This document shows positions 23,820-42,036 of a stretch of 64,000 nucleotides of DNA, piece by piece; position 1 is the first letter of the stretch; each line of letters starts with the position of its first letter. This DNA comes from a virus (taxonomy: Duplodnaviria; Heunggongvirae; Uroviricota; Caudoviricetes), in the IMG/VR virus record IMGVR_UViG_3300028833_000054, positions 246,482-310,481 of that record; one strand, given 5' to 3'. A program made the position numbers and the translations under genes. Below the pieces are notes generated by a model. The model saw nothing but the letters and a program-made list of their open reading frames with translations. It had not been told where the DNA came from and did not search any database.

Positions 23820-24026
23820 ATTGGTAAATATACAACTGCTCCAAGTTTTATGCTGTCTTTGACCAGGCTCCCTACCTGCCCTCACTGTACCCTACATACC
23901 AATAAATTGTAAACTGTATCTGCATACACTGTCCAGTATTATCTTCTGTTGGCCTCGGATTGCTGATTGGCTTTTCAACATAAACCGCTTGGTAGTATTA
24001 TCAGGAGGCTTACTGTTGTATATTTG

Positions 24027-24097
24027 TGCTCGACACAAGAATCGAACTCGTCTCCTCTGGGTTAGGGCCAGGTGCACATCCACTGTACCAGTCGAGC
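24027..24097 (-). tRNA. tRNA-Sup(CTA), amber-suppressor-type
   Basis: Acceptor GCTCGAC/GTCGAGC, D stem GTAC/GTGC, loop CC CTA AC, T arm ACGAG TTCGATT CTTGT. Confidence 0.75.
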
Positions 24098-25045: not shown

Positions 25046-25681
25046 TTATATCAGTTTTCCATTCACTTGTCTAAAGTACTTTGCAAAATCAAACAAAGAC
25101 TTGAACCTAAAAACTTTCTCGCAGTCACAAGAATCAGAGATTGACTTCAAATCTACATTCTTGTTATAAGGAGCAGTAATCAATACACATACCTTAGCTT
25201 TGCAATTTTTGAAATAATCAGGATTGTCATCAATCATAATATCACAGTCTACAATAGACTTGTCATTAAGGAAACATACATTTCTTGTGTCAAATCCTTC
25301 ACGATGAAGAAAATCAAGAGTGTCACGTTTGTTCTCATAAGTCTTTTGTGAAGACAAAATCATAACATCACCGTATTTTTTCAATTCTTCTATCGCCCAG
25401 TCTGCACCAGGAAATGATTTTGCATTTTCAAAGAACAATTCTCGTGAATGTGTACCAAAAAGCCAATCTGCTGCACGAAGCCCTGTCTTTTCAGGAATAT
25501 CAGAAAATGTTATAGCAACATCAAAAGTTGTAACATCTTCCTTTTTCATAGATTTGTTGAAATTCTTATTATAAAGATTCAACATTCCTTGGACTGTACA
25601 TCTTAGTACTTCATCACAATCAACAGCTATTTTCAATTTCTTATTCATGTACAAATATATGAAATAAAAATTAAATATCAA
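25046..25681 (-). CDS. 5'(3')-deoxyribonucleotidase (HAD; start probably 25648)
   Basis: VDCDEVL motif I; MIDDNP; APYN. Confidence 0.8.
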   Translation of the reverse strand: MIFNFYFIYLYMNKKLKIAVDCDEVLRCTVQGMLNLYNKNFNKSMKKEDVTTFDVAITFSDIPEKTGLRAADWLFGTHSRELFFENAKSFPGADWAIEELKKYGDVMILSSQKTYENKRDTLDFLHREGFDTRNVCFLNDKSIVDCDIMIDDNPDYFKNCKAKVCVLITAPYNKNVDLKSISDSCDCEKVFRFKSLFDFAKYFRQVNGKLI

Positions 25682-25693
25682 AATATATTACCA

Positions 25694-25728
25694 AAAAAGT
25701 CAACCGCTTTGTGCAAGTGGTTGACTTC
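25694..25728 (-). terminator. Intrinsic terminator
   Basis: AAGTCAACC/GGTTGACTT hairpin plus U-tract. Confidence 0.65.
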
Positions 25729-26792: not shown

Positions 26793-26826
26793 TGTAAAAA
26801 ATAATAGAGTTCAAGACTCTATTTAG

Positions 26827-26962
26827 TAGCGGGGGTTGGACTTGAACCAACAATCTTTTGTGCCATGATACAAACGTTTTATCCTCGAAGTAGCTGTTTT
26901 AGATGACTACTATTTCTAGAGAAAGCTCCTAACAGATAATTTCTTTATTAAACTTCCCCGCT
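26827..26962 (-). ncRNA. tRNA-Y-module chimera 1 (module inserted in D-loop; ATCATGGC anticodon loop)
   Basis: Acceptor AGCGGGG/CCCCGCT, T arm GTTGG TTCAAGT CCAAC, insert ..TTTCT CTA GAAA TAG TAGTCA..CTACTTCG. Confidence 0.75.
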
Positions 26963-27003: not shown

Positions 27004-28653
27004 TTAGATGACGAGCTTGCGGATCTCATCTATGTGAGCAGAAGGATTGAACTCCTTAGTTGCAATATCCTGGAACATTGAAAGTCCATATCCGAAGTAG
27101 TAGTTGACCTTACCACCTGCAAGAGGTGTAGTACCGTATGCTGCAAGGTCAACAGCGTAGACGTAAGGGTCAGTAACGTCGTGGATGTAGCTCTTGTAAG
27201 CAGTGCTGGTCCAGTCTCCTGACCAGTAACCACGGCTGTTGCACTCGTTGTCTGAAAGGATTATGATACGGTCATAAACCCTCTTCAACCTACGAATTAA
27301 ATCAAATGCAGAAGCAATTGAAGTTCCACCCATGTTTGCGTTACCGATTTGACGGCCAAGGGTGAATACATCCGTGTTAGGATTGTATGAGTACATCTGA
27401 GCACTTGAACCGAAGCGGACAACGTCGGCGTTAGTTGCTTTCGCAATTGTTGCTGCGATAAGTCCTGCCTTCTCTGCTGCAGTGGTCTGAACGCGGTTGC
27501 TTGAACCACTGTAATAGCAGTAAGTGTTCATAGAGCCTGAGCAGTCAACCATAACGCAGGTCTTTCCAGGAAGAGCTTCTGCTAGGTTAGGAACTGCATA
27601 CTCATAACCCTTAAGGAGAGCCTGCATGACTCTACGTCCTTCAGCGGTTGAGCTGAATTCTTGCTTGACAGTCTCGTATGCGTAGTCAATCTGGTAAGGC
27701 ATAACCTTTCCCTGACGGATTTTTTCACCGTCTGAAACAAGCACACAAAGAGCGTCAATGACTTCCTTACGAGGACTCTTAAGCATGTTACGGACGTTAC
27801 GAATTGCAGCAAGAATACCAAGCTTACCATCAAGAAGAAGTCCCTGCCAGTTGTCATTCTTTGCTTCCGCAAGAACAACAGCAGCCTTCTCCTTAGAAAG
27901 CTTACCAGCCTTTACAGCTGCTGCAACCTCTTGACCAGCCTCTGAGTTTGCAGCCTCCCAAGTGTCAGCTGTAACAGTGAAACCCTGCATGAGTGCGTCA
28001 AGAGTCTTCATCGTCTTACCGTTGATAGTGACTTCAGCAGTAGAGAGCTTGCTCTTAGGGTGTGTTAAGTTTGCAATGTCAATTGCAGTGTCCTTGTACT
28101 TAGCAAGCTGGTAAGTATCAAGGTTCTCAAGAACTGAGGCGAAACCCTTCTTCATTGAGTTGCTCAATGCAGACTTGTTAAGCGCACAGTAAACGTCCTT
28201 GATTTCACTCATGTCATCAGGACGGTAAATAACTCCACCCTTCTGGGCCTTACGGTCCCAGAGTCCGTAAAAACGCTTAGCGTATTCGTTACCTGCAATG
28301 AAAGGTGCAGCAAGTGCAGCTGCAAGATGGCTGACAGCCCTCATACCTTCACCCATGCAACGAGACCAAACAATAATCTGAGCAAGAAAATAAGGGTCCT
28401 TGAGACCAACCTTCTCAATCAAATCACGGAGTTCCTTCATAGTTTGATTCTCAGAACGGTAGAACTGAGGCTCAAGCTTTAAGGTGTTCAACATAGATAC
28501 AAGACGAAGTTCATCACCAAGTGAATATGCCTTGTAACCTTGACGGTTTACAGTATTCTCAGCTGGAATACTTGCGATGTTTGCAACCGTCTCCTTTGAG
28601 GCCATAGCTCCTAGAGCTGACCTAAGCTGAGAGTTACGATCTTTCATCTTCAT
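27004..28653 (-). CDS. rsr: Ro60/TROVE-domain RNA-binding protein with C-terminal vWA
   Basis: N-terminal NRQGYKAYSL..ELRLVSMLNT..FY; R.EGMR; vWA VDCSGSM, GGT, ILSDNE. Confidence 0.9.
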   Translation of the reverse strand: MKMKDRNSQLRSALGAMASKETVANIASIPAENTVNRQGYKAYSLGDELRLVSMLNTLKLEPQFYRSENQTMKELRDLIEKVGLKDPYFLAQIIVWSRCMGEGMRAVSHLAAALAAPFIAGNEYAKRFYGLWDRKAQKGGVIYRPDDMSEIKDVYCALNKSALSNSMKKGFASVLENLDTYQLAKYKDTAIDIANLTHPKSKLSTAEVTINGKTMKTLDALMQGFTVTADTWEAANSEAGQEVAAAVKAGKLSKEKAAVVLAEAKNDNWQGLLLDGKLGILAAIRNVRNMLKSPRKEVIDALCVLVSDGEKIRQGKVMPYQIDYAYETVKQEFSSTAEGRRVMQALLKGYEYAVPNLAEALPGKTCVMVDCSGSMNTYCYYSGSSNRVQTTAAEKAGLIAATIAKATNADVVRFGSSAQMYSYNPNTDVFTLGRQIGNANMGGTSIASAFDLIRRLKRVYDRIIILSDNECNSRGYWSGDWTSTAYKSYIHDVTDPYVYAVDLAAYGTTPLAGGKVNYYFGYGLSMFQDIATKEFNPSAHIDEIRKLVI

Positions 28654-28716
28654 GGTTTTTGACTTTTAATTTTATAAATTAAAGAAATTTAATTCCTTAG
28701 AATTATCAAAAAGGAA

Positions 28717-28857
28717 AGCAGAGAATGTTAACACAGACATAACATTTTTTGATAAAACATTTCAAGTGTTTCGCGTGAACCATTTCGCCACTCGGGTGGA
28801 ACCCAAGACAGGAATCGAACCTGCAAATCGAAGTAAGTCTGTAGTTTGACTACTGCT
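28717..28857 (-). ncRNA. YrlA-like Y RNA (circularly permuted tRNA domain), 64 nt upstream of the Ro60 start
   Basis: AGCAG/CTGCT terminal stem, TAGTCA, ACAGAC/GTCTGT, TTACTTCG, then T arm, closed acceptor CTTGGGT TCC ACCCGAG, D arm, ASL CT TGA AA. Confidence 0.8.
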
Positions 28858-28859
28858 AG

Positions 28860-28939: not shown

Positions 28940-29077
28940 CAACAAGAGAAAGCAGAAGAGAGTGTAAATATGTAGCATCTTATCAGAATTGAACTGATTA
29001 CCCCAGGCTCCCAAAGCTTGTGCTCTACCAAATGAGCTAAAAACGCGAAGTACCTCTTACTTCTTGACTACTTGCTG
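28940..29077 (-). ncRNA. Y-module stems enclosing a whole tRNA-Pro(TGG)-like domain (28974-29046)
   Basis: CAGCAAG/CTTGTTG, TAGTCA, GTACTTC; loop TT TGG GA; 3' TTTCT. Confidence 0.75.
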
Positions 29078-29153
29078 GTGGAAACTACTGGAGTCGAACC
29101 AGTGACCTTCTGCTTGTAAGGCAGACGCTCTAAACCAACTGCGCTAAGCTTCC
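29076..29153 (-). tRNA. tRNA-Val(TAC)
   Basis: Loop CT TAC AA, encoded CCA. Confidence 0.92.
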
Positions 29154-29163
29154 ATTATTATTG

Positions 29164-29257
29164 TGGTTGTGGCGGGATTTGAACCCTCGATTTCGCATGA
29201 GGCAGCGTCGTACTCCGTAAAGGCCTTAGGCCAATGTTTCTTTTCACGAGCACAACC
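29164..29257 (-). ncRNA. tRNA-like RNA with expanded D arm and no clear anticodon
   Basis: Acceptor GGTTGTG/CACAACC, T arm GAGGG TTCAAAT CCCGC, GGCC TAA GGCC hairpin in D region. Confidence 0.5.
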
Positions 29258-29263
29258 ATAAAA

Positions 29264-29395
29264 AATACAGAGAAAATTGAAAAGAATTATACCGGCATGG
29301 AGCCGTCGGCAGGAATCGAACCTGCTACCCTAAAATTACAAATTTTATGCTCTACCCCTGAGCTACGAAGAAACTCTTTTCGTGACTGCTGTATT
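29264..29395 (-). ncRNA. Y-module stems enclosing a tRNA-Thr(TGT)-like domain
   Basis: AATACAG/CTGTATT, CAGTCA, GAAAAGA/TCTTTTC, TTCTTCG; loop TT TGT AA; acceptor 5' strand degenerate. Confidence 0.75.
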
Positions 29396-29402
29396 AGATG
29401 TC

Positions 29403-29537
29403 ATCCAAAGAAAACGGAGAAGAAGTTGTTCAATGTTGGGAAATGCGGGACTCGAACCCGCGAATTCAAATTTGGAAGATTTGCGTTAAATCCACTTAAC
29501 TAATTTCTCGATGAATTTCTTTTCCTGACTATTGGAT
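29403..29537 (-). ncRNA. Y-module stems enclosing a tRNA-Gly(TCC)-like domain
   Basis: ATCCAA/TTGGAT, TAGTCA, TTCATCG; loop CT TCC AA; 3' TTTTCT. Confidence 0.75.
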
Positions 29538-29540
29538 TAG

Positions 29541-31131: not shown

Positions 31132-31174
31132 ATATTTTGATTTTTGTTCAATATATTTATTATGATAAATTTAG

Positions 31175-31249
31175 TCGGGATGGCGGGACTCGAACCCACG
31201 ACCACGTGATCCCAAATCACGCGTGCTAAACCAACTGCACCACATCCCG
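31175..31249 (-). tRNA. tRNA-Pro(TGG)
   Basis: Loop TT TGG GA. Confidence 0.92.
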
Positions 31250-31955: not shown

Positions 31956-31977
31956 ATTCTCTAACTATTTGATAGTG

Positions 31978-32049
31978 AGCAGGATAGCGGAATCGAACCG
32001 CCATATCCAGCTTGGAAGGCTGGCATAATAACCGTTATACTAATCCTGC
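31978..32049 (-). tRNA. tRNA-Gly(TCC)
   Basis: Loop CT TCC AA. Confidence 0.92.
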
Positions 32050-33765: not shown

Positions 33766-33902
33766 TGGACGGGGCTGGATTTGAACCAACATACGATTGT
33801 GCCATAAACAATTTGCTATACCTTCGAAGTAGCTCTTACCGATGACTACGTTTTGCCGAGAATGCTCAGAAGAGATAATTTCTTTTATTTGCATACCCGT
33901 CC
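33766..33902 (-). ncRNA. tRNA-Y-module chimera (D-loop insertion; ASL TT ATG GC)
   Basis: GGACGGG/CCCGTCC; D stem TGC/GCA encloses ..ATTCT CG GCAAAA CG TAGTCA..GCTACTTCG. Confidence 0.8.
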
Positions 33903-35361: not shown

Positions 35362-35507
35362 TTCCATATTTCTTCAAAGAACTTTTTTCTGTTTGCAAGT
35401 ACAAATATACGAATAATATTTTTAACCGCAAAATATTTTTTAAAAAATTTAAGCTCCTCAACCTTTTTGTTCGGATGAGGAGCTCTCGATTTCTTGTAAT
35501 CTTTATC

Positions 35508-35785: not shown

Positions 35786-36187
35786 TTATTTTTGGCCATG
35801 TCTAGCTTGTATATCAGCATATAACTGTTTTGCTGTTTCTCCGTCAAGATGACTTGCACCATCTTTGTCTACCCAAACTTTAGCATTAGGATATCTTTTA
35901 CGCAAATCATCTTGTTCTTTTGCTTCTGTCTCTTTCTTATGGCAATTGTAACCATATCCAAATACTTGATAAAATAATGTTTCTAATGTAGGAAGTTCTG
36001 CATAAGATAAAGATTTTCCTATTCGTTGTTGATATGCTGCTACTGCTTTTTTAGAAACTGCTTTAGCTTCTTCCACCGGACTAGTGTTTCCTTCATCAAG
36101 ATGATTGACATATTTCATAACATCTTGCTTTCCATAAGACTCAACAAGTCTCTGAAGTTCTTTTCTATCTTTATCAATTTGTTTCAT
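35786..36187 (-). CDS. Paralog family with conserved N-terminal RLVESYGK leader, member 1
   Basis: MKQIDKDRKELQRLVESYGKQDVMKYVNHLDEG. Confidence 0.8.
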   Translation of the reverse strand: MKQIDKDRKELQRLVESYGKQDVMKYVNHLDEGNTSPVEEAKAVSKKAVAAYQQRIGKSLSYAELPTLETLFYQVFGYGYNCHKKETEAKEQDDLRKRYPNAKVWVDKDGASHLDGETAKQLYADIQARHGQK

Positions 36188-36241
36188 ATCAATATATAAT
36201 ATTTTTCTTCATGCACAAGAACGAGAGAAATTTCTCACATT

Positions 36242-36670
36242 TTAATCGTCATCAGTTAAAAGAGTTCTTGGACTTCTCATACGACCGAAGAATCCACGTG
36301 ATTCAATCTTGTCATACATATCTCTATATCCTCTATTATATCCTTCGTCTTTACCGTTCTGATAACCATCATTATATCCTTCTTCATAGGCTTCATCATA
36401 TCCTACTTTCTTACCTTCTTCTACTCCGAGTTCATAAGGTTCATTCTGAACAGTATCAACTAAATCTTCTAGAACTTGCTGTATTTGATTAAGTATTTCT
36501 TCTTTGAGACCTCCTGTAATTTCTGATATTCTACGTACACATTCCTGTACAGCATTCAAATCATCGTTACGGCTTTCATTGATATACAATACAAAATTTT
36601 TAACATCTTCTTTTCCATAAGATTCAACCAATCTCTTAAGAGTTTCTCTATCCATTTCTATCTGTTTCAT
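36242..36670 (-). CDS. RLVESYGK leader family member 2 (GYxxGY repeats)
   Basis: MKQIEMDRETLKRLVESYGKEDVKNFVLYINES. Confidence 0.8.
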   Translation of the reverse strand: MKQIEMDRETLKRLVESYGKEDVKNFVLYINESRNDDLNAVQECVRRISEITGGLKEEILNQIQQVLEDLVDTVQNEPYELGVEEGKKVGYDEAYEEGYNDGYQNGKDEGYNRGYRDMYDKIESRGFFGRMRSPRTLLTDDD

Positions 36671-36686
36671 ATATACTCATTTTATT

Positions 36687-37217
36687 TTACATCAAACCAA
36701 TATATAACTGAACCTCGCCTGTAGTATCATTGATAAATGCAAAGATTACAAAGTTAGGAAATTCAATTTTTTCAATAGAACAACTAGCATTTTCATATTC
36801 AAATCCTACAATTTCTTGTCCTCTGTTATTATTAACAACATTGTCCCAAATATCTTCTGCAGCGTTGCCAAAAAATGCATAGCAATCTTCATATTCACCC
36901 AATTCATCTACAATGTCACTTAATTCATAGCGCCATTCATTATATACATCATTTTGATCTTCTTCAGAATCAGGAACCCAAGCATTTATCATAGATGCAA
37001 TCAAAACATTTTTGTCATATTTACAATAAGAATAAACATCTTGAACGAGTTGTGATTTTATATATTGTTCATTGTTTACAGTGTCATAAATATATGTTAT
37101 AGCATCATCTTCGTTTATTCCTTCATTAAGATGATTTACAAACTTCAAAACATCTTGTTTACCATAAGACTCAACAAGTCTCTTGAGGGTTTCTCTATCT
37201 CTGTTTACAGTATTCAT
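36687..37217 (-). CDS. RLVESYGK leader family member 3
   Basis: MNTVNRDRETLKRLVESYGKQDVLKFVNHLNEG. Confidence 0.8.
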   Translation of the reverse strand: MNTVNRDRETLKRLVESYGKQDVLKFVNHLNEGINEDDAITYIYDTVNNEQYIKSQLVQDVYSYCKYDKNVLIASMINAWVPDSEEDQNDVYNEWRYELSDIVDELGEYEDCYAFFGNAAEDIWDNVVNNNRGQEIVGFEYENASCSIEKIEFPNFVIFAFINDTTGEVQLYIGLM

Positions 37218-37253
37218 ATTATAATAAATTTCAAATTTAAATATTTATCTAAC

Positions 37254-38808: not shown

Positions 38809-38813
38809 TTGTG

Positions 38814-38888
38814 AGCTCCTAATCGGATTCGAACCAATACTTAAGCTTTACAGGGGCCTCGTGCTCAGCCATTAAACACCATAGGAGC
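38814..38888 (-). tRNA. tRNA-Thr(TGT), C33
   Basis: AGGCC CC TGT AA AGCTT. Confidence 0.7.
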
Positions 38889-39050: not shown

Positions 39051-39055
39051 ATTCT

Positions 39056-39127
39056 TCCGGCACTCTGCCTTTTGAGCTACCCGACCGCTTAATGGCCGGG
39101 GTAAGATTCGAACTTACAACCACCGGA
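39056..39127 (-). ncRNA. Circularly permuted tRNA opened at the anticodon loop
   Basis: TCCGG - V - GTAAG TTCGAAT CTTAC - CCCGGCC ATTAAGC GGTCGGG - TA GCTC AAAAGGCA GAGT G - CCGGA. Confidence 0.75.
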
Positions 39128-39133
39128 GTTCCG

Positions 39134-39550: not shown

Positions 39551-39691
39551 TGGGGAGAGTTAGATTTGAACTAACGACACGGTCCTTTCAATGGAACTTC
39601 GAAGTAACTTTGACAATGACTATCTTTTCAGAAGAAAACTTGCAAAGCAAATTTTCGTTTTTACCTGCTCTACCAACTGAGCTATCTCCCC
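39551..39691 (-). ncRNA. tRNA(Phe-type body)-Y-module chimera (insertion in the anticodon arm)
   Basis: GGGGAGA/TCTCCCC, normal D and T arms; insert TTTTCT TCT GAAA AGA TAGTCA..TTACTTCG. Confidence 0.8.
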
Positions 39692-41508: not shown

Positions 41509-41657
41509 ATTCCTATTTCTGCGACCTCGTTTGCAAGAGGTCAATCAATGTTTCTGTTTATAATGTTTCATTTTCTATTAAATCTAGTTTGTGTTACAAA
41601 TATATGAATTATTTCTCAAATCCCAAAATATTTTTTAACTTTTTTCAAAAATTTTTC

Positions 41658-41907: not shown

Positions 41908-42036
41908 TGTTTCTAAGTTTTTAAAGTTATTTGTAAATTTTATACGACAAATATACGAAAGATTTTTTAAATCCCAAAATAAATTTTAATATTTATTACG
42001 ATTTTGTGAGAAATTTCTCACATTTTCTATTTTAAT

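What the first reader, a model, noticed from the sequence alone, without database searches (positions are those of the whole stretch)
28940..29537. Three near-intact tRNAs (Pro, Thr, Gly) nested inside Y-module stems
Each tRNA body is bracketed by the module's 5' and 3' strands, and the ACTTCG-type motif runs straight into position 1. Acceptor stems are partly decayed: the Thr 5' strand is replaced by TTCTTCG and its 3' strand can form the alternative hairpin CGGC TCCAT GCCG. Separate conventional Pro(TGG), Thr(TGT) and Gly(TCC) genes exist elsewhere in the array, so these copies appear to have been repurposed.
Basis: partly seen in the sequence, partly recalled or inferred. Interest (0 to 1): 0.7.

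Follow-up and report, generated by a model that had tools for sequence, protein, structure and literature searches.

The report
tRNAs nested in phage Y-RNA stems
A 364-kb phage places three tRNA-shaped RNAs (Pro, Thr, Gly) inside a conserved double-helix "handle". The same handle carries the tRNA-mimic partner RNA next to its Ro60 gene, so these are probably tRNA copies turned into Ro60-linked Y RNAs, not ordinary decoding tRNAs.

Summary
On the minus strand, tRNA-Gly(UCC), a tRNA-Thr(UGU)-like body and tRNA-Pro(UGG) each sit inside a 132-138 nt module. The module runs outer helix, (U/C)AGUCA loop, inner helix, (U)ACUUCG-type tail, cargo, inner helix', NNUUUCU loop, outer helix'.

The same module encloses the permuted YrlA-like tRNA mimic directly upstream of a divergent Ro60/Rsr gene. 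It recurs about 105 times, on the rsr strand, in 80 related phage Rsr loci plus this window. Both helices show abundant compensatory change.

About a fifth of the copies carry a tRNA in native order. The rest carry permuted tRNA mimics, short loops or other inserts.

- **Thr copy:** it cannot become a tRNA. The module tail replaces nucleotides 1-7, and a CGA-plus-hairpin closes the acceptor. Five relatives share this design.
- **Pro and Gly copies:** they keep acceptor stems but lack the isotype identity nucleotides and the C74 that all 41 scored conventional tRNAs have.
- **Pro-type orthologues:** their anticodon and loop size drift while G36-G37 is kept.

Best reading: a new tRNA-order variant of phage Y RNAs. 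Ro60 binding and processing are untested. This scan has already noted such phage Y-RNA arrays beside Ro60 genes on other DNA, one with a complete tRNA insert.

The parts
29509..29538 (-). Gly module, 5' strand: outer helix AAUCCAA (29538-29532), loop UAGUCA (29531-29526), inner helix GGAAAAGA (29525-29518), tail AAUUCAUCG (29517-29509; the last G is tRNA nt 1)
29437..29509 (-). tRNA-Gly(UCC) body. The acceptor has 6/7 pairs (A2-C71 mismatch), A73 and A74. The anticodon loop CUUCCAA is identical to that of the conventional Gly(UCC).
   Evidence: (58.7 bits)
29402..29423 (-). Gly module, 3' strand: inner helix' UCUUCUCC (29423-29416), loop GUUUUCU (29415-29409), outer helix' UUGGAUG (29408-29402)
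29366..29395 (-). Thr module, 5' strand: outer helix AAUACAG (29395-29389), loop CAGUCAC (29388-29382), inner helix GAAAAGAG (29381-29374), tail UUUCUUCG (29373-29366), which takes the place of tRNA nt 1-7
29298..29365 (-). Thr(UGU) tRNA-like body from U8 onward: D arm, anticodon arm (loop UUUGUAA), T arm and the 3' acceptor strand CGACGGC-U. Rfam matches only model positions 5-66.
   Evidence: (51.2 bits, local)
29293..29305 (-). Hairpin CGGC-UCCAU-GCCG following CGA. It closes the acceptor end. The same CGA + hairpin design, with different helix sequences, occurs in 5 related phages.
29264..29286 (-). Thr module, 3' strand: inner helix' UUCUUUUC (29286-29279), loop AAUUUUCU (29278-29271), outer helix' CUGUAUU (29270-29264), followed by a U-run
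29046..29077 (-). Pro module, 5' strand: outer helix CAGCAAG (29077-29071), loop UAGUCA (29070-29065), inner helix AGAAG-UA-AGAG (29064-29054), tail GUACUUCG (29053-29046; the last G is tRNA nt 1)
28974..29046 (-). tRNA-Pro(UGG) body. The acceptor has 7/7 pairs (2 G-U) with G1:C72, U73 and A74. The anticodon loop UUUGGGA is identical to that of the conventional Pro(UGG).
   Evidence: (55.7 bits)
28940..28962 (-). Pro module, 3' strand: inner helix' CUCU-CUUCU (28962-28954), loop GCUUUCU (28953-28947), outer helix' CUUGUUG (28946-28940)
28716..28858 (-). Context: the same module enclosing a permuted YrlA-like tRNA mimic (T arm, acceptor-like hairpin, D arm), directly upstream of rsr
   Evidence: (YrlA model 29-81, 18.4 bits)
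27004..28653 (-). Context: a 549-aa divergent Ro60/Rsr (TROVE ring + vWA with a DxSxS MIDAS motif)
   Evidence: profile against phiLo Ro60 9KOP E 1.5e-24; Xenopus Ro60 6.7e-10; D. radiodurans Rsr 5.8e-7

Best explanation
The three elements belong to a phage-specific family of Y-RNA-like small RNAs. A conserved handle is made by the 5' and 3' ends. It runs outer helix, UAGUMA/UUUCU internal loop, inner helix, UUACUUCG-type junction. I infer that this handle is the platform for the phage's own Ro60/Rsr protein. A variable cargo is held at its tip.

In these three copies the cargo is a whole tRNA in native 5'-to-3' order, captured from the phage's own tRNA repertoire.

- **Thr copy:** a closed tRNA mimic. 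The junction motif replaces acceptor nucleotides 1-7. Only UCG/CGA pairs remain, and a 3' hairpin stacks in place of the rest of the acceptor stem. No chargeable end can be made.
- **Pro and Gly copies:** they keep an open acceptor stem joined to the handle by short single-stranded linkers. RNase P could cut them, as it does M. smegmatis YrlA. However, they have lost the nucleotides that aminoacyl-tRNA synthetases and 3' maturation normally use.

The likely job (inferred) is to present an authentic tRNA elbow and anticodon loop on a Ro60 particle. This would serve as bait or tether for tRNA-recognising factors such as host anticodon nucleases, modification or repair enzymes, or PNPase. Decoding is not the likely job.

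**Shown here:** the structure, its conservation, its linkage to rsr, and the degenerate tRNA features.
**Inferred:** Ro60 binding and the bait role.
For: **The handle**
1. The same architecture appears in the MFE folds of all three elements and of the YrlA-like element next to rsr.
2. The helices covary.
   - In 31 copies, 440 of 465 helix cells pair, with 3-6 pair types per column.
   - RNAalifold on 21 tRNA-cargo modules recovers the 8-bp outer helix, with 4-13 double-sided changes per pair. It also recovers the invariant A-U and G-C pairs between the UAG... and ...CU loop ends, and the cloverleaf arms.
3. In the window plus 80 Rsr loci (33-65% protein identity) there are 105 distinct copies on the rsr strand and 5 on the other (127 and 5 before removal of duplicates). 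These lie mostly within a few kb of rsr.
4. Among loci found by the 5' motif alone, 22 of 31 with a canonical module have Rsr on the contig. Among 204 motif matches without the structure, 8 have it.
5. The cargo is modular: 29 short loops, 38 permuted YrlA-like, 21 tRNA-order and 17 other. This mirrors Y RNA paralogues that share one stem.

**The tRNA cargo**
6. The Thr design (tail abutting U8, CGA + hairpin) recurs in 5 relatives with compensatory hairpin sequences.
7. Identity and maturation nucleotides are lost.
   - Nested Gly lacks C2:G71 and U73, and nested Pro lacks G72 and A73. The conventional copies keep them.
   - Both nested copies have A74, whereas all 41 conventional tRNAs that could be scored have C74.
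8. Clear orthologues of the Pro-type copy, with the same acceptor and T arm, carry UGG, AGG, UAG or UUG anticodons, or 8-nt or 6-nt loops. They keep G36-G37.

**Context**
9. The neighbouring protein is a Ro60. Its closest solved relative, phiLo Ro60, binds Y-like RNAs encoded upstream of its gene (PMC12135203).
10. D. radiodurans Yrn1 already shows a Y RNA whose Ro stem sits at the acceptor position of a tRNA-like domain. M. smegmatis YrlA is cut by RNase P and receives CCA (PMC4201824).
Against: - No binding data exist.
- The junction motif is UUACUUCG followed by variable bases. The published GNCGAA/CGAA Ro motif is matched only at (U)CG(A).
- Rfam YrlA does not hit these three elements.
- One 94%-complete relative (L330's record) has a good module but no Rsr at E <= 1e-5. 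Eight further module-bearing contigs lack Rsr, though all eight are <= 50% complete.
- Co-occurrence with Rsr is partly phylogenetic and is not a set of independent events.
- Pro has a perfect acceptor stem. Both Pro and Gly have canonical anticodon loops, so they may still be matured and used in translation.
- Non-Watson-Crick cells show no G-U over A-C excess (49:47). The strand of the structure therefore rests on orientation, not on pair chemistry.
- Fold z-scores of single copies are unremarkable, from -0.5 to -1.8.
Confidence: 0.55

Rival explanations
1. They are ordinary phage tRNA genes. The leader-trailer duplex is a processing, stability or excision signal for the long polycistronic tRNA transcript, for example a bulged RNase III-type site like the T7 R1.1 signals, or a protective structure. 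Mature tRNA-Pro and tRNA-Gly are released and used in translation. The link to Ro60 is only genomic neighbourhood.
For: - Pro and Gly score as full tRNAs: 55.7 and 58.7 bits, with 7/7 and 6/7 acceptor pairs and canonical 7-nt anticodon loops.
- Single-stranded linkers of 4-8 nt separate the acceptor stem from the handle, so RNase P access is conceivable.
- Some relatives' nested copies end in N73-CCA.
- One near-complete relative has a module without Rsr.
Against: - The same handle encloses 13-40 nt loops, permuted tRNA mimics and non-tRNA inserts that yield no tRNA.
- The Thr-type design cannot give a tRNA, yet it is conserved with compensatory changes.
- The loop and junction sequences are conserved across phages whose Rsr is only 33-40% identical. 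This points to a specific binding partner and not to a generic duplex.
- The other 42 tRNAs called in the array lack the handle.
- Nested copies lack the C74 found in all 41 scored conventional tRNAs, and they lack identity nucleotides.
- Anticodons drift between orthologues.
Confidence: 0.25
2. They serve two purposes. The handle keeps a Ro60-bound, nuclease-resistant reserve form. RNase P and 3' trimming with CCA addition can release spare tRNA-Pro and tRNA-Gly from it when host tRNAs are depleted or cleaved. The Thr copy is a pure mimic.
For: - M. smegmatis YrlA is cleaved by RNase P and receives CCA (PMC4201824).
- Pro and Gly have open acceptor stems, followed by N73-ACA.
- The phage encodes RtcB elsewhere in its genome.
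- Jumbo-phage TROVE proteins have been proposed as RNA-repair platforms (PMC7824862).
Against: - Loss of synthetase identity nucleotides and of C74 argues against efficient maturation and charging.
- Conventional copies of all three isoacceptors already exist.
- There is no direct evidence.
Confidence: 0.15
3. The flanks are DNA-level features and not an RNA structure. They would be terminal inverted repeats of mobile tRNA cassettes, or recombination sites spread by the homing endonucleases in the array.
For: - HNH and GIY-YIG endonuclease genes lie within the array.
- Helix mismatches show no G-U bias, so pairing would work equally on either strand.
Against: - Each copy has different helix sequences that stay complementary. 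Mobile-element ends would share sequence.
- Only the unpaired loop and junction sequences are conserved.
- Copies are strictly co-oriented with the tRNAs and rsr, 105 against 5.
- In Thr-type copies the junction motif forms part of the tRNA-like fold.
Confidence: 0.03

Closest known systems
YrlA (Rfam RF02553), the tRNA-like Y RNA bound by bacterial and mycobacteriophage Rsr (Chen et al. 2014, PMC4201824)
   Same: - Encoded beside rsr on the same strand.
- The 5' and 3' ends form a stem, and a tRNA-like domain with GCUC/GAGC D arm and GUUCRA T loop sits at the tip.
- A short conserved 5'-strand motif containing CG(A) lies at the stem/domain junction.
- At least one YrlA is an RNase P and CCA-adding substrate.
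   Different: - YrlA is circularly permuted (T arm, closed acceptor stem-loop, D arm) and has no anticodon arm. These three keep native tRNA order with a full anticodon arm and, in Pro and Gly, an open acceptor stem.
- The handle here is a longer two-helix stem with a conserved UAGUMA/UUUCU loop and a UUACUUCG junction, not GNCGAA(N)G.
- Rfam YrlA gives no hit on them.
Deinococcus radiodurans Yrn1 Y RNA (Chen et al. 2014)
   Same: The Ro-binding stem made by the RNA ends occupies the acceptor-stem position of a tRNA-like domain in unpermuted order, with an anticodon-arm-like stem-loop and a T arm.
   Different: - Yrn1 has only a partial D loop and a 6-nt 'anticodon loop'. It is not recognisable as a tRNA gene.
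- Its Ro site resembles the metazoan bulged helix on both strands.
- Here the bodies score 51-59 bits as tRNA, and the stem motifs are unrelated in sequence.
Thermus phage phiLo Ro60 with Yrl1/Yrl2 (PMC12135203; PDB 9KOP, 9L5Y)
   Same: - It is the closest solved relative of the window's Rsr (profile E 1.5e-24).
- Its Y-like RNAs are encoded just upstream of the phage Ro60 gene.
- They have a stem-bulge-stem architecture, and binding was shown experimentally.
   Different: Yrl1 and Yrl2 are simple hairpin or bulge RNAs defined by a CGAA motif in the bulge. They have no tRNA body, they are a pair and not an array of about ten, and their conserved sequences differ.
Ordinary phage tRNA genes in jumbo-phage tRNA arrays
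   Same: - They lie in the same array and orientation.
- They show cloverleaf features.
- Their anticodon loops are identical to those of the conventional isoacceptors.
   Different: - They are enclosed by the conserved handle.
- They carry A74 where conventional tRNAs carry C74.
- They lack isotype identity nucleotides.
- The Thr copy lacks a 5' acceptor strand.

Membership tests
tRNA (RF00005) | Full cloverleaf match at or above the gathering score (29 bits), covering model positions 1-71 | tested here: met
   Pro scores 55.7 bits and Gly 58.7 bits, both over 1-71/71. Thr scores 51.2 bits but matches only positions 5-66, so this feature is met for Pro and Gly only.
tRNA (RF00005) | Seven-bp acceptor stem formed by the 5' and 3' ends, giving a processable and chargeable end | tested here: inconclusive
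   Pro has 7/7 pairs and Gly 6/7. In Thr the 5' strand is replaced by the module tail, leaving 5/7 nominal pairs, and CGA + hairpin is the alternative. So this is met for Pro, nearly met for Gly and not met for Thr.
tRNA (RF00005) | Isotype identity nucleotides and the 3' context shared by the genome's working tRNAs | tested here: not met
   Nested Gly has A73 and an A2-C71 mismatch, where the conventional copy has U73 and C2:G71. Nested Pro has U73 and C72, where the conventional copy has A73 and G72. Nested Pro and Gly have A74, against C74 in 41/41 scored conventional tRNAs. The identity rules themselves come from established E. coli work and not from this host.
tRNA (RF00005) | Anticodon conserved among orthologues | tested here: not met
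   Pro-type orthologues with the same acceptor and T arm carry UGG, AGG, UAG or UUG, or 8-nt or 6-nt loops. Gly(UCC) and Cys(GCA) nested copies do keep their anticodons in two phages each.
YrlA (RF02553) | Rfam covariance-model score at or above 69 bits | tested here: not met
   There is no YrlA hit on the three elements at E <= 5. The neighbouring permuted element scores 18.4 bits, and 39054-39128 scores 37 bits.
YrlA (RF02553) | Permuted tRNA-like domain: T arm, acceptor-like stem-loop, D arm | tested here: not met
   The three have native order: D arm, anticodon arm, T arm.
YrlA (RF02553) | GNCGAA(N)G motif near the 5' end | tested here: not met
   The junction is (U)UACUUCG or UUCAUCG, followed by CG, UA or AG. 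Only the CG(A) core is shared.
Y RNA (functional class) | Encoded near a Ro60/Rsr gene on the same strand | tested here: met
   The elements lie 0.3-0.9 kb upstream of rsr on the same strand. Family-wide there are 105 same-strand copies against 5 opposite.
Y RNA (functional class) | The 5' and 3' ends pair into a long conserved stem, with a variable module at the tip | tested here: met
Y RNA (functional class) | Physically bound by Ro60/Rsr | not testable with these tools
   This needs EMSA or RIP with the phage Rsr.

The most novel reading that the evidence does not exclude
Large phages maintain a panel of Ro60-tethered, full-length tRNA baits. Each displays an authentic anticodon loop (Pro, Gly, Thr, Cys, Ile, His and others) on a common protein-binding handle. 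The baits would capture or sense host tRNA-targeting defence nucleases, or recruit repair (RtcB) or decay (PNPase) machinery to damaged tRNAs. That would make a new RNA-protein counter-defence device built from recycled tRNA genes.
Probability: 0.2. Interest if true: 0.85.

Novelty: new variant of a known kind. Interest (0 to 1): 0.62.

Why it matters
**An open question about Y RNAs.** Why bacterial Y RNAs mimic tRNA is unresolved. Here the mimic is a whole, recognisable tRNA still attached to the presumed Ro60 handle. Sister copies show stepwise conversion: an open acceptor, then a closed acceptor, then the permuted YrlA form.
- This gives a natural series for asking which tRNA features matter.
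- It gives a concrete evolutionary route from tRNA gene to Y RNA.
- It provides defined constructs for Ro60-binding, RNase P and nuclease-bait experiments.

**A practical point for annotation.** tRNA counts in jumbo-phage annotation include copies that are probably not decoders.

Tried and rejected
- **Flank-duplex energy as a discriminator.** I compared the duplex energy between the 34 nt upstream and 45 nt downstream of all 45 tRNAs. It does not discriminate: Pro ranks first, but Thr and Gly are mid-table in this AT-rich DNA.
- **Single-sequence fold z-scores.** They are unremarkable.
- **G-U against A-C counts to fix the folding strand.** When pairs are chosen by Watson-Crick matches only, the counts are 49:47 and uninformative. 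An earlier 22:5 count was biased by counting G-U as a pair during selection.
- **MAFFT/RNAalifold on whole modules.** This recovered the outer helix and the cloverleaf but misaligned the inner helix and the Thr-type hairpin. I measured those with loop-anchored scripts instead.
- **Similar DNA in GenBank phages.** A BLAST search found only generic tRNA matches.
- **Direct-repeat finder.** It returned only tRNA T-arm families.
- **Equating the junction motif with the published CGAA Ro motif.** I rejected this because the bases after UCG vary.
- **Absolute module-Rsr linkage.** I rejected this after whole-record checks.
- **Promoter and terminator consensus scan of the region.** It was at shuffle level.
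- **Not attempted:** a typed-structure pair count on alignment A5.
Full report
**Setting**

The window lies in a 364-kb IMG/VR phage record that is 94% complete. Between about 21.5 and 41.7 kb the minus strand carries some 45-48 tRNA genes. These cover all 20 amino acids and include an amber suppressor. HNH and GIY-YIG endonuclease genes are interspersed among them.

The ORF at 28653-27004 (minus strand, 549 aa) is a divergent Ro60/Rsr.
- Pfam sees only its vWA part: vWA_Ro60 at 25.6 bits and VWA_2 at 29.8 bits.
- A profile of nine orthologues matches Thermus phage phiLo Ro60 (9KOP/9L5Y) end to end at E 1.5e-24. It also matches Xenopus Ro60 (6.7e-10), human RO60 and D. radiodurans Rsr (5.8e-7).
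- The MIDAS motif D-x-S-x-S is invariant.

Directly upstream, at 28858-28716, lies an element whose core aligns to the permuted tRNA-like part of Rfam YrlA: T arm, acceptor-like hairpin, D arm (model positions 29-81).

**The observation**

ARAGORN and Rfam call Pro(UGG) 29046-28974, Thr(UGU) 29372-29298 and Gly(UCC) 29509-29437. Folding each with its flanks gives one shared architecture in the minimum-free-energy structure. The YrlA-like neighbour has the same architecture. Reading 5' to 3', it is:
1. an outer helix of 5-7 bp;
2. an internal loop with 5' (U/C)AGUCA opposite 3' NNUUUCU;
3. an inner helix of 8-9 bp;
4. a tail ending in (U)ACUUCG or UUCAUCG;
5. the tRNA.

The full modules span 29538-29402 (Gly), 29395-29264 (Thr) and 29077-28940 (Pro).

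The last G of the tail is tRNA nucleotide 1 in Pro and Gly. In Thr the tail UUCUUCG sits where nucleotides 1-7 should be. Acceptor pairing is 7/7 for Pro, 6/7 for Gly and 5/7 (nominal) for Thr. Conventional Pro(UGG), Gly(UCC) and Thr(UGU) genes exist at 31174-31249, 31977-32049 and 38813-38888.

**Is it more than chance?**

Flank complementarity measured by duplex energy alone is not distinctive in this AT-rich array. The motif-anchored structure is distinctive.
- A scan requiring the 5' loop word, at least 6/7 outer pairs, at least 7/8 inner pairs and a 3' U(U/C)CU loop end found about 20 real copies. It found 1 in 1.06 Mb of shuffled sequence scanned on both strands. This scan did not require the tail.
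- Nearly all real copies turned out to carry the UUACUUCG-type tail anyway.
- In the whole genome the 5' pattern occurs six times on the tRNA strand and never on the other, all inside the array.

**The module is a conserved, covarying RNA structure**

Loci fetched through Rsr homology carry the same module upstream of rsr. In 31 copies, 418 Watson-Crick and 22 G-U pairs fill 465 helix cells, and every helix column shows 3-6 different pair types.

RNAalifold on 21 tRNA-cargo modules recovers:
- the eight outer pairs, each with 4-13 sequences changed on both sides;
- two invariant pairs joining the AG of UAGUMA to the CU of UUUCU;
- the D, anticodon and T stems.

Only the loop and tail sequences are conserved. 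The tail consensus is U-U-A-C-U-U-C-G, though part of it was imposed by the search pattern. The 5' loop is UAGUAA in 70 copies, UAGUCA in 20 and UAGUUA in 11.

A count of G-U against A-C mismatches made without bias is 49:47. Pair chemistry therefore does not identify the folding strand. Orientation does: across the window and 80 Rsr loci (33-65% protein identity), 105 distinct copies lie on the rsr strand and 5 on the other.

**Link to Ro60**

Two scans of IMG/VR with the 5' pattern alone returned 235 loci. Most are chance matches, and 31 have the canonical structure.
- Of those 31, 13 have Rsr within the stretch held and 9 more have it elsewhere on the contig.
- Nine do not. Eight of these come from contigs that are 3-50% complete. 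One (L330's record) is 94% complete and has a convincing YrlA-type module.
- Among the 204 loci without the structure, 8 have Rsr.

The linkage is strong but not absolute, and it is partly a matter of shared ancestry.

**Cargo is modular**

The 105 same-strand copies fall into five classes:

| Cargo class | Copies |
|---|---|
| Short loops, 13-45 nt | 29 |
| T arm first (permuted, YrlA-like) | 16 |
| V arm plus T arm first | 22 |
| tRNA order | 21 |
| Other | 17 |

The nested tRNAs are therefore a recurrent sub-class and not a peculiarity of this phage. ARAGORN labels them Pro, Gly, Thr, Cys, Ile, His, Arg, Gln, Leu or UCA-suppressor, or leaves them unassigned.

**Are the nested bodies still tRNAs?**

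*Thr.* It is not.
- Six copies in six phages share its design. The tail abuts U8, and only UCG/CGA pairs next to the T stem.
- In five of the six, a 4-6 bp hairpin follows immediately, with a different helix sequence each time.
- Geometrically this closes the acceptor end, as the acceptor stem-loop does in YrlA. That last point is my inference.
- The 3' strand and trailer (GGCUCCAUGCC) closely match a conventional Thr(UGU) of a relative (GGCUCCAUGAC). This suggests descent from a normal tRNA-Thr gene.

*Pro and Gly.* The evidence is mixed.
- Both have canonical anticodon loops, UUUGGGA and CUUCCAA, identical to those of their conventional counterparts.
- Nested Gly has A73 and an A2-C71 mismatch where the conventional copy has U73 and C2:G71. 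Nested Pro has C72 and U73 where the conventional copy has G72 and A73. Both therefore lack the nucleotides that bacterial GlyRS and ProRS use, according to established E. coli identity rules.
- Both have A at position 74, whereas all 41 conventional tRNAs that could be scored have C74.
- Orthologues of the Pro-type copy share acceptor and T-arm sequences yet carry UGG, AGG, UAG or UUG anticodons, or 8-nt or 6-nt loops. They always keep G36-G37. A class-I-sized 'Leu(UAG)' cannot be a bacterial tRNA-Leu.
- Against this, Gly(UCC) and Cys(GCA) nested copies keep their anticodons in two distant phages each. The Cys ones do so even though they are of the closed, unchargeable type. This suggests that the anticodon loop itself is what matters.

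**Comparison with what is known**

Chen et al. 2014 (PMC4201824) report the following.
- YrlA RNAs are encoded beside rsr in bacteria and 22 phages.
- They carry a permuted tRNA-like domain and a GNCGAA(N)G motif.
- D. radiodurans Yrn1 has the opposite topology, with the Ro stem at the acceptor position.
- M. smegmatis YrlA is cut by RNase P and receives CCA.

The phiLo study (PMC12135203) shows a phage Ro60 binding two Y-like RNAs encoded upstream of its gene, which were found through a CGAA motif. A jumbo-phage survey notes TROVE proteins with a tRNA-like partner as possible RNA-repair platforms (PMC7824862). This phage also encodes RtcB elsewhere in its genome.

The present elements differ in three ways.
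- They have a complete tRNA in native order.
- Their handle is a longer two-helix stem with its own conserved loop.
- Their junction motif shares only (U)CG(A) with the published one.

Rfam YrlA does not detect them. I found no paper describing whole tRNAs nested in Y-RNA stems. Earlier notes of this scan describe the same kind of phage Y-RNA arrays on other DNA, one with a complete tRNA insert.

**Verdict**

- Repurposing is well supported for Thr and plausible for Pro and Gly.
- Ro60 binding is inferred from linkage and from analogy with known Y RNAs.
- I file these as a new variant of a known kind: Y RNAs with a tRNA-order, near-intact tRNA module.
- I put 0.55 on the Ro60-handle/tRNA-bait reading, 0.25 on ordinary tRNAs with a processing duplex, 0.15 on a dual reserve form, and about 0.03 on a DNA-level mobile cassette.

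Noticed in passing
window 29160-29252 (-): This is an odd tRNA-like element lying between the Thr module and tRNA-Val(UAC). It has a 7-8 bp acceptor-type stem (GGUUGUG/CACAACC followed by ACA) and a T-arm-like GAGGGUUCAAAUCCCGC. About 50 nt of non-tRNA sequence takes the place of the D and anticodon arms. ARAGORN and Rfam do not call it, apart from a 9-bit tmRNA 3'-end match.
   Followed up: partly
window 39054-39128 (-): This is the best YrlA-core match in the window (37 bits, model positions 20-89, local E 2.8e-7). It is squeezed between tRNA-Leu(UAA) and tRNA-Thr(GGU), with no room for the long handle, so it is a handle-less YrlA-like core.
   Followed up: partly
window 39551-39691 (-): Rfam aligns a full tRNA model (45.6 bits) over 141 nt, and the module's 5' motif (39622) lies inside it. 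The handle therefore appears to be grafted into a tRNA body, not wrapped around it.
   Followed up: no
window 21.5-41.7 kb (-): All 41 conventional tRNAs that could be scored have C at position 74, but only 7 encode CCA. The commonest trailer is CAA. This suggests a uniform 3'-processing signal for the array.
   Followed up: partly
window 24026-24097 (-): There is a tRNA with a CUA anticodon (an amber suppressor, which ARAGORN labels 'Pyl'). It hints at TAG reassignment in part of the phage's gene set. Relatives carry UCA-anticodon tRNAs, and some of those are nested in the handle and end in ACCA.
   Followed up: no
window 26816-26909 and 33766-33848 (-): Two further handle copies share 73% identical cargo of unknown type, with no T loop. 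They lie downstream of rsr and in the middle of the array.
   Followed up: no
window 36088-37226: Three tandem repeats of about 109 nt, 68-77% identical, overlap three small paralogous ORFs (133-176 aa) that have no Pfam match.
   Followed up: no
window 25651-25709, 35401-35459, 41596-41654, 41947-42005: An AT-rich motif (ACAAATATAYGAA followed by CCCAAAATA) recurs. It may be a phage promoter or other regulatory signal punctuating the array.
   Followed up: no
L330 2629 (-), record of 146,941 bp, 94% complete: A GC-richer relative carries a convincing handle with V+T-first (YrlA-like) cargo, but no Rsr homologue is detectable in the record at E <= 1e-5.
   Followed up: partly
G000:C1:53451-54575 (outside the window): The same phage genome encodes an RtcB RNA ligase (464-aa open frame). 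In Salmonella, RtcB is co-operonic with rsr and yrlA.
   Followed up: no
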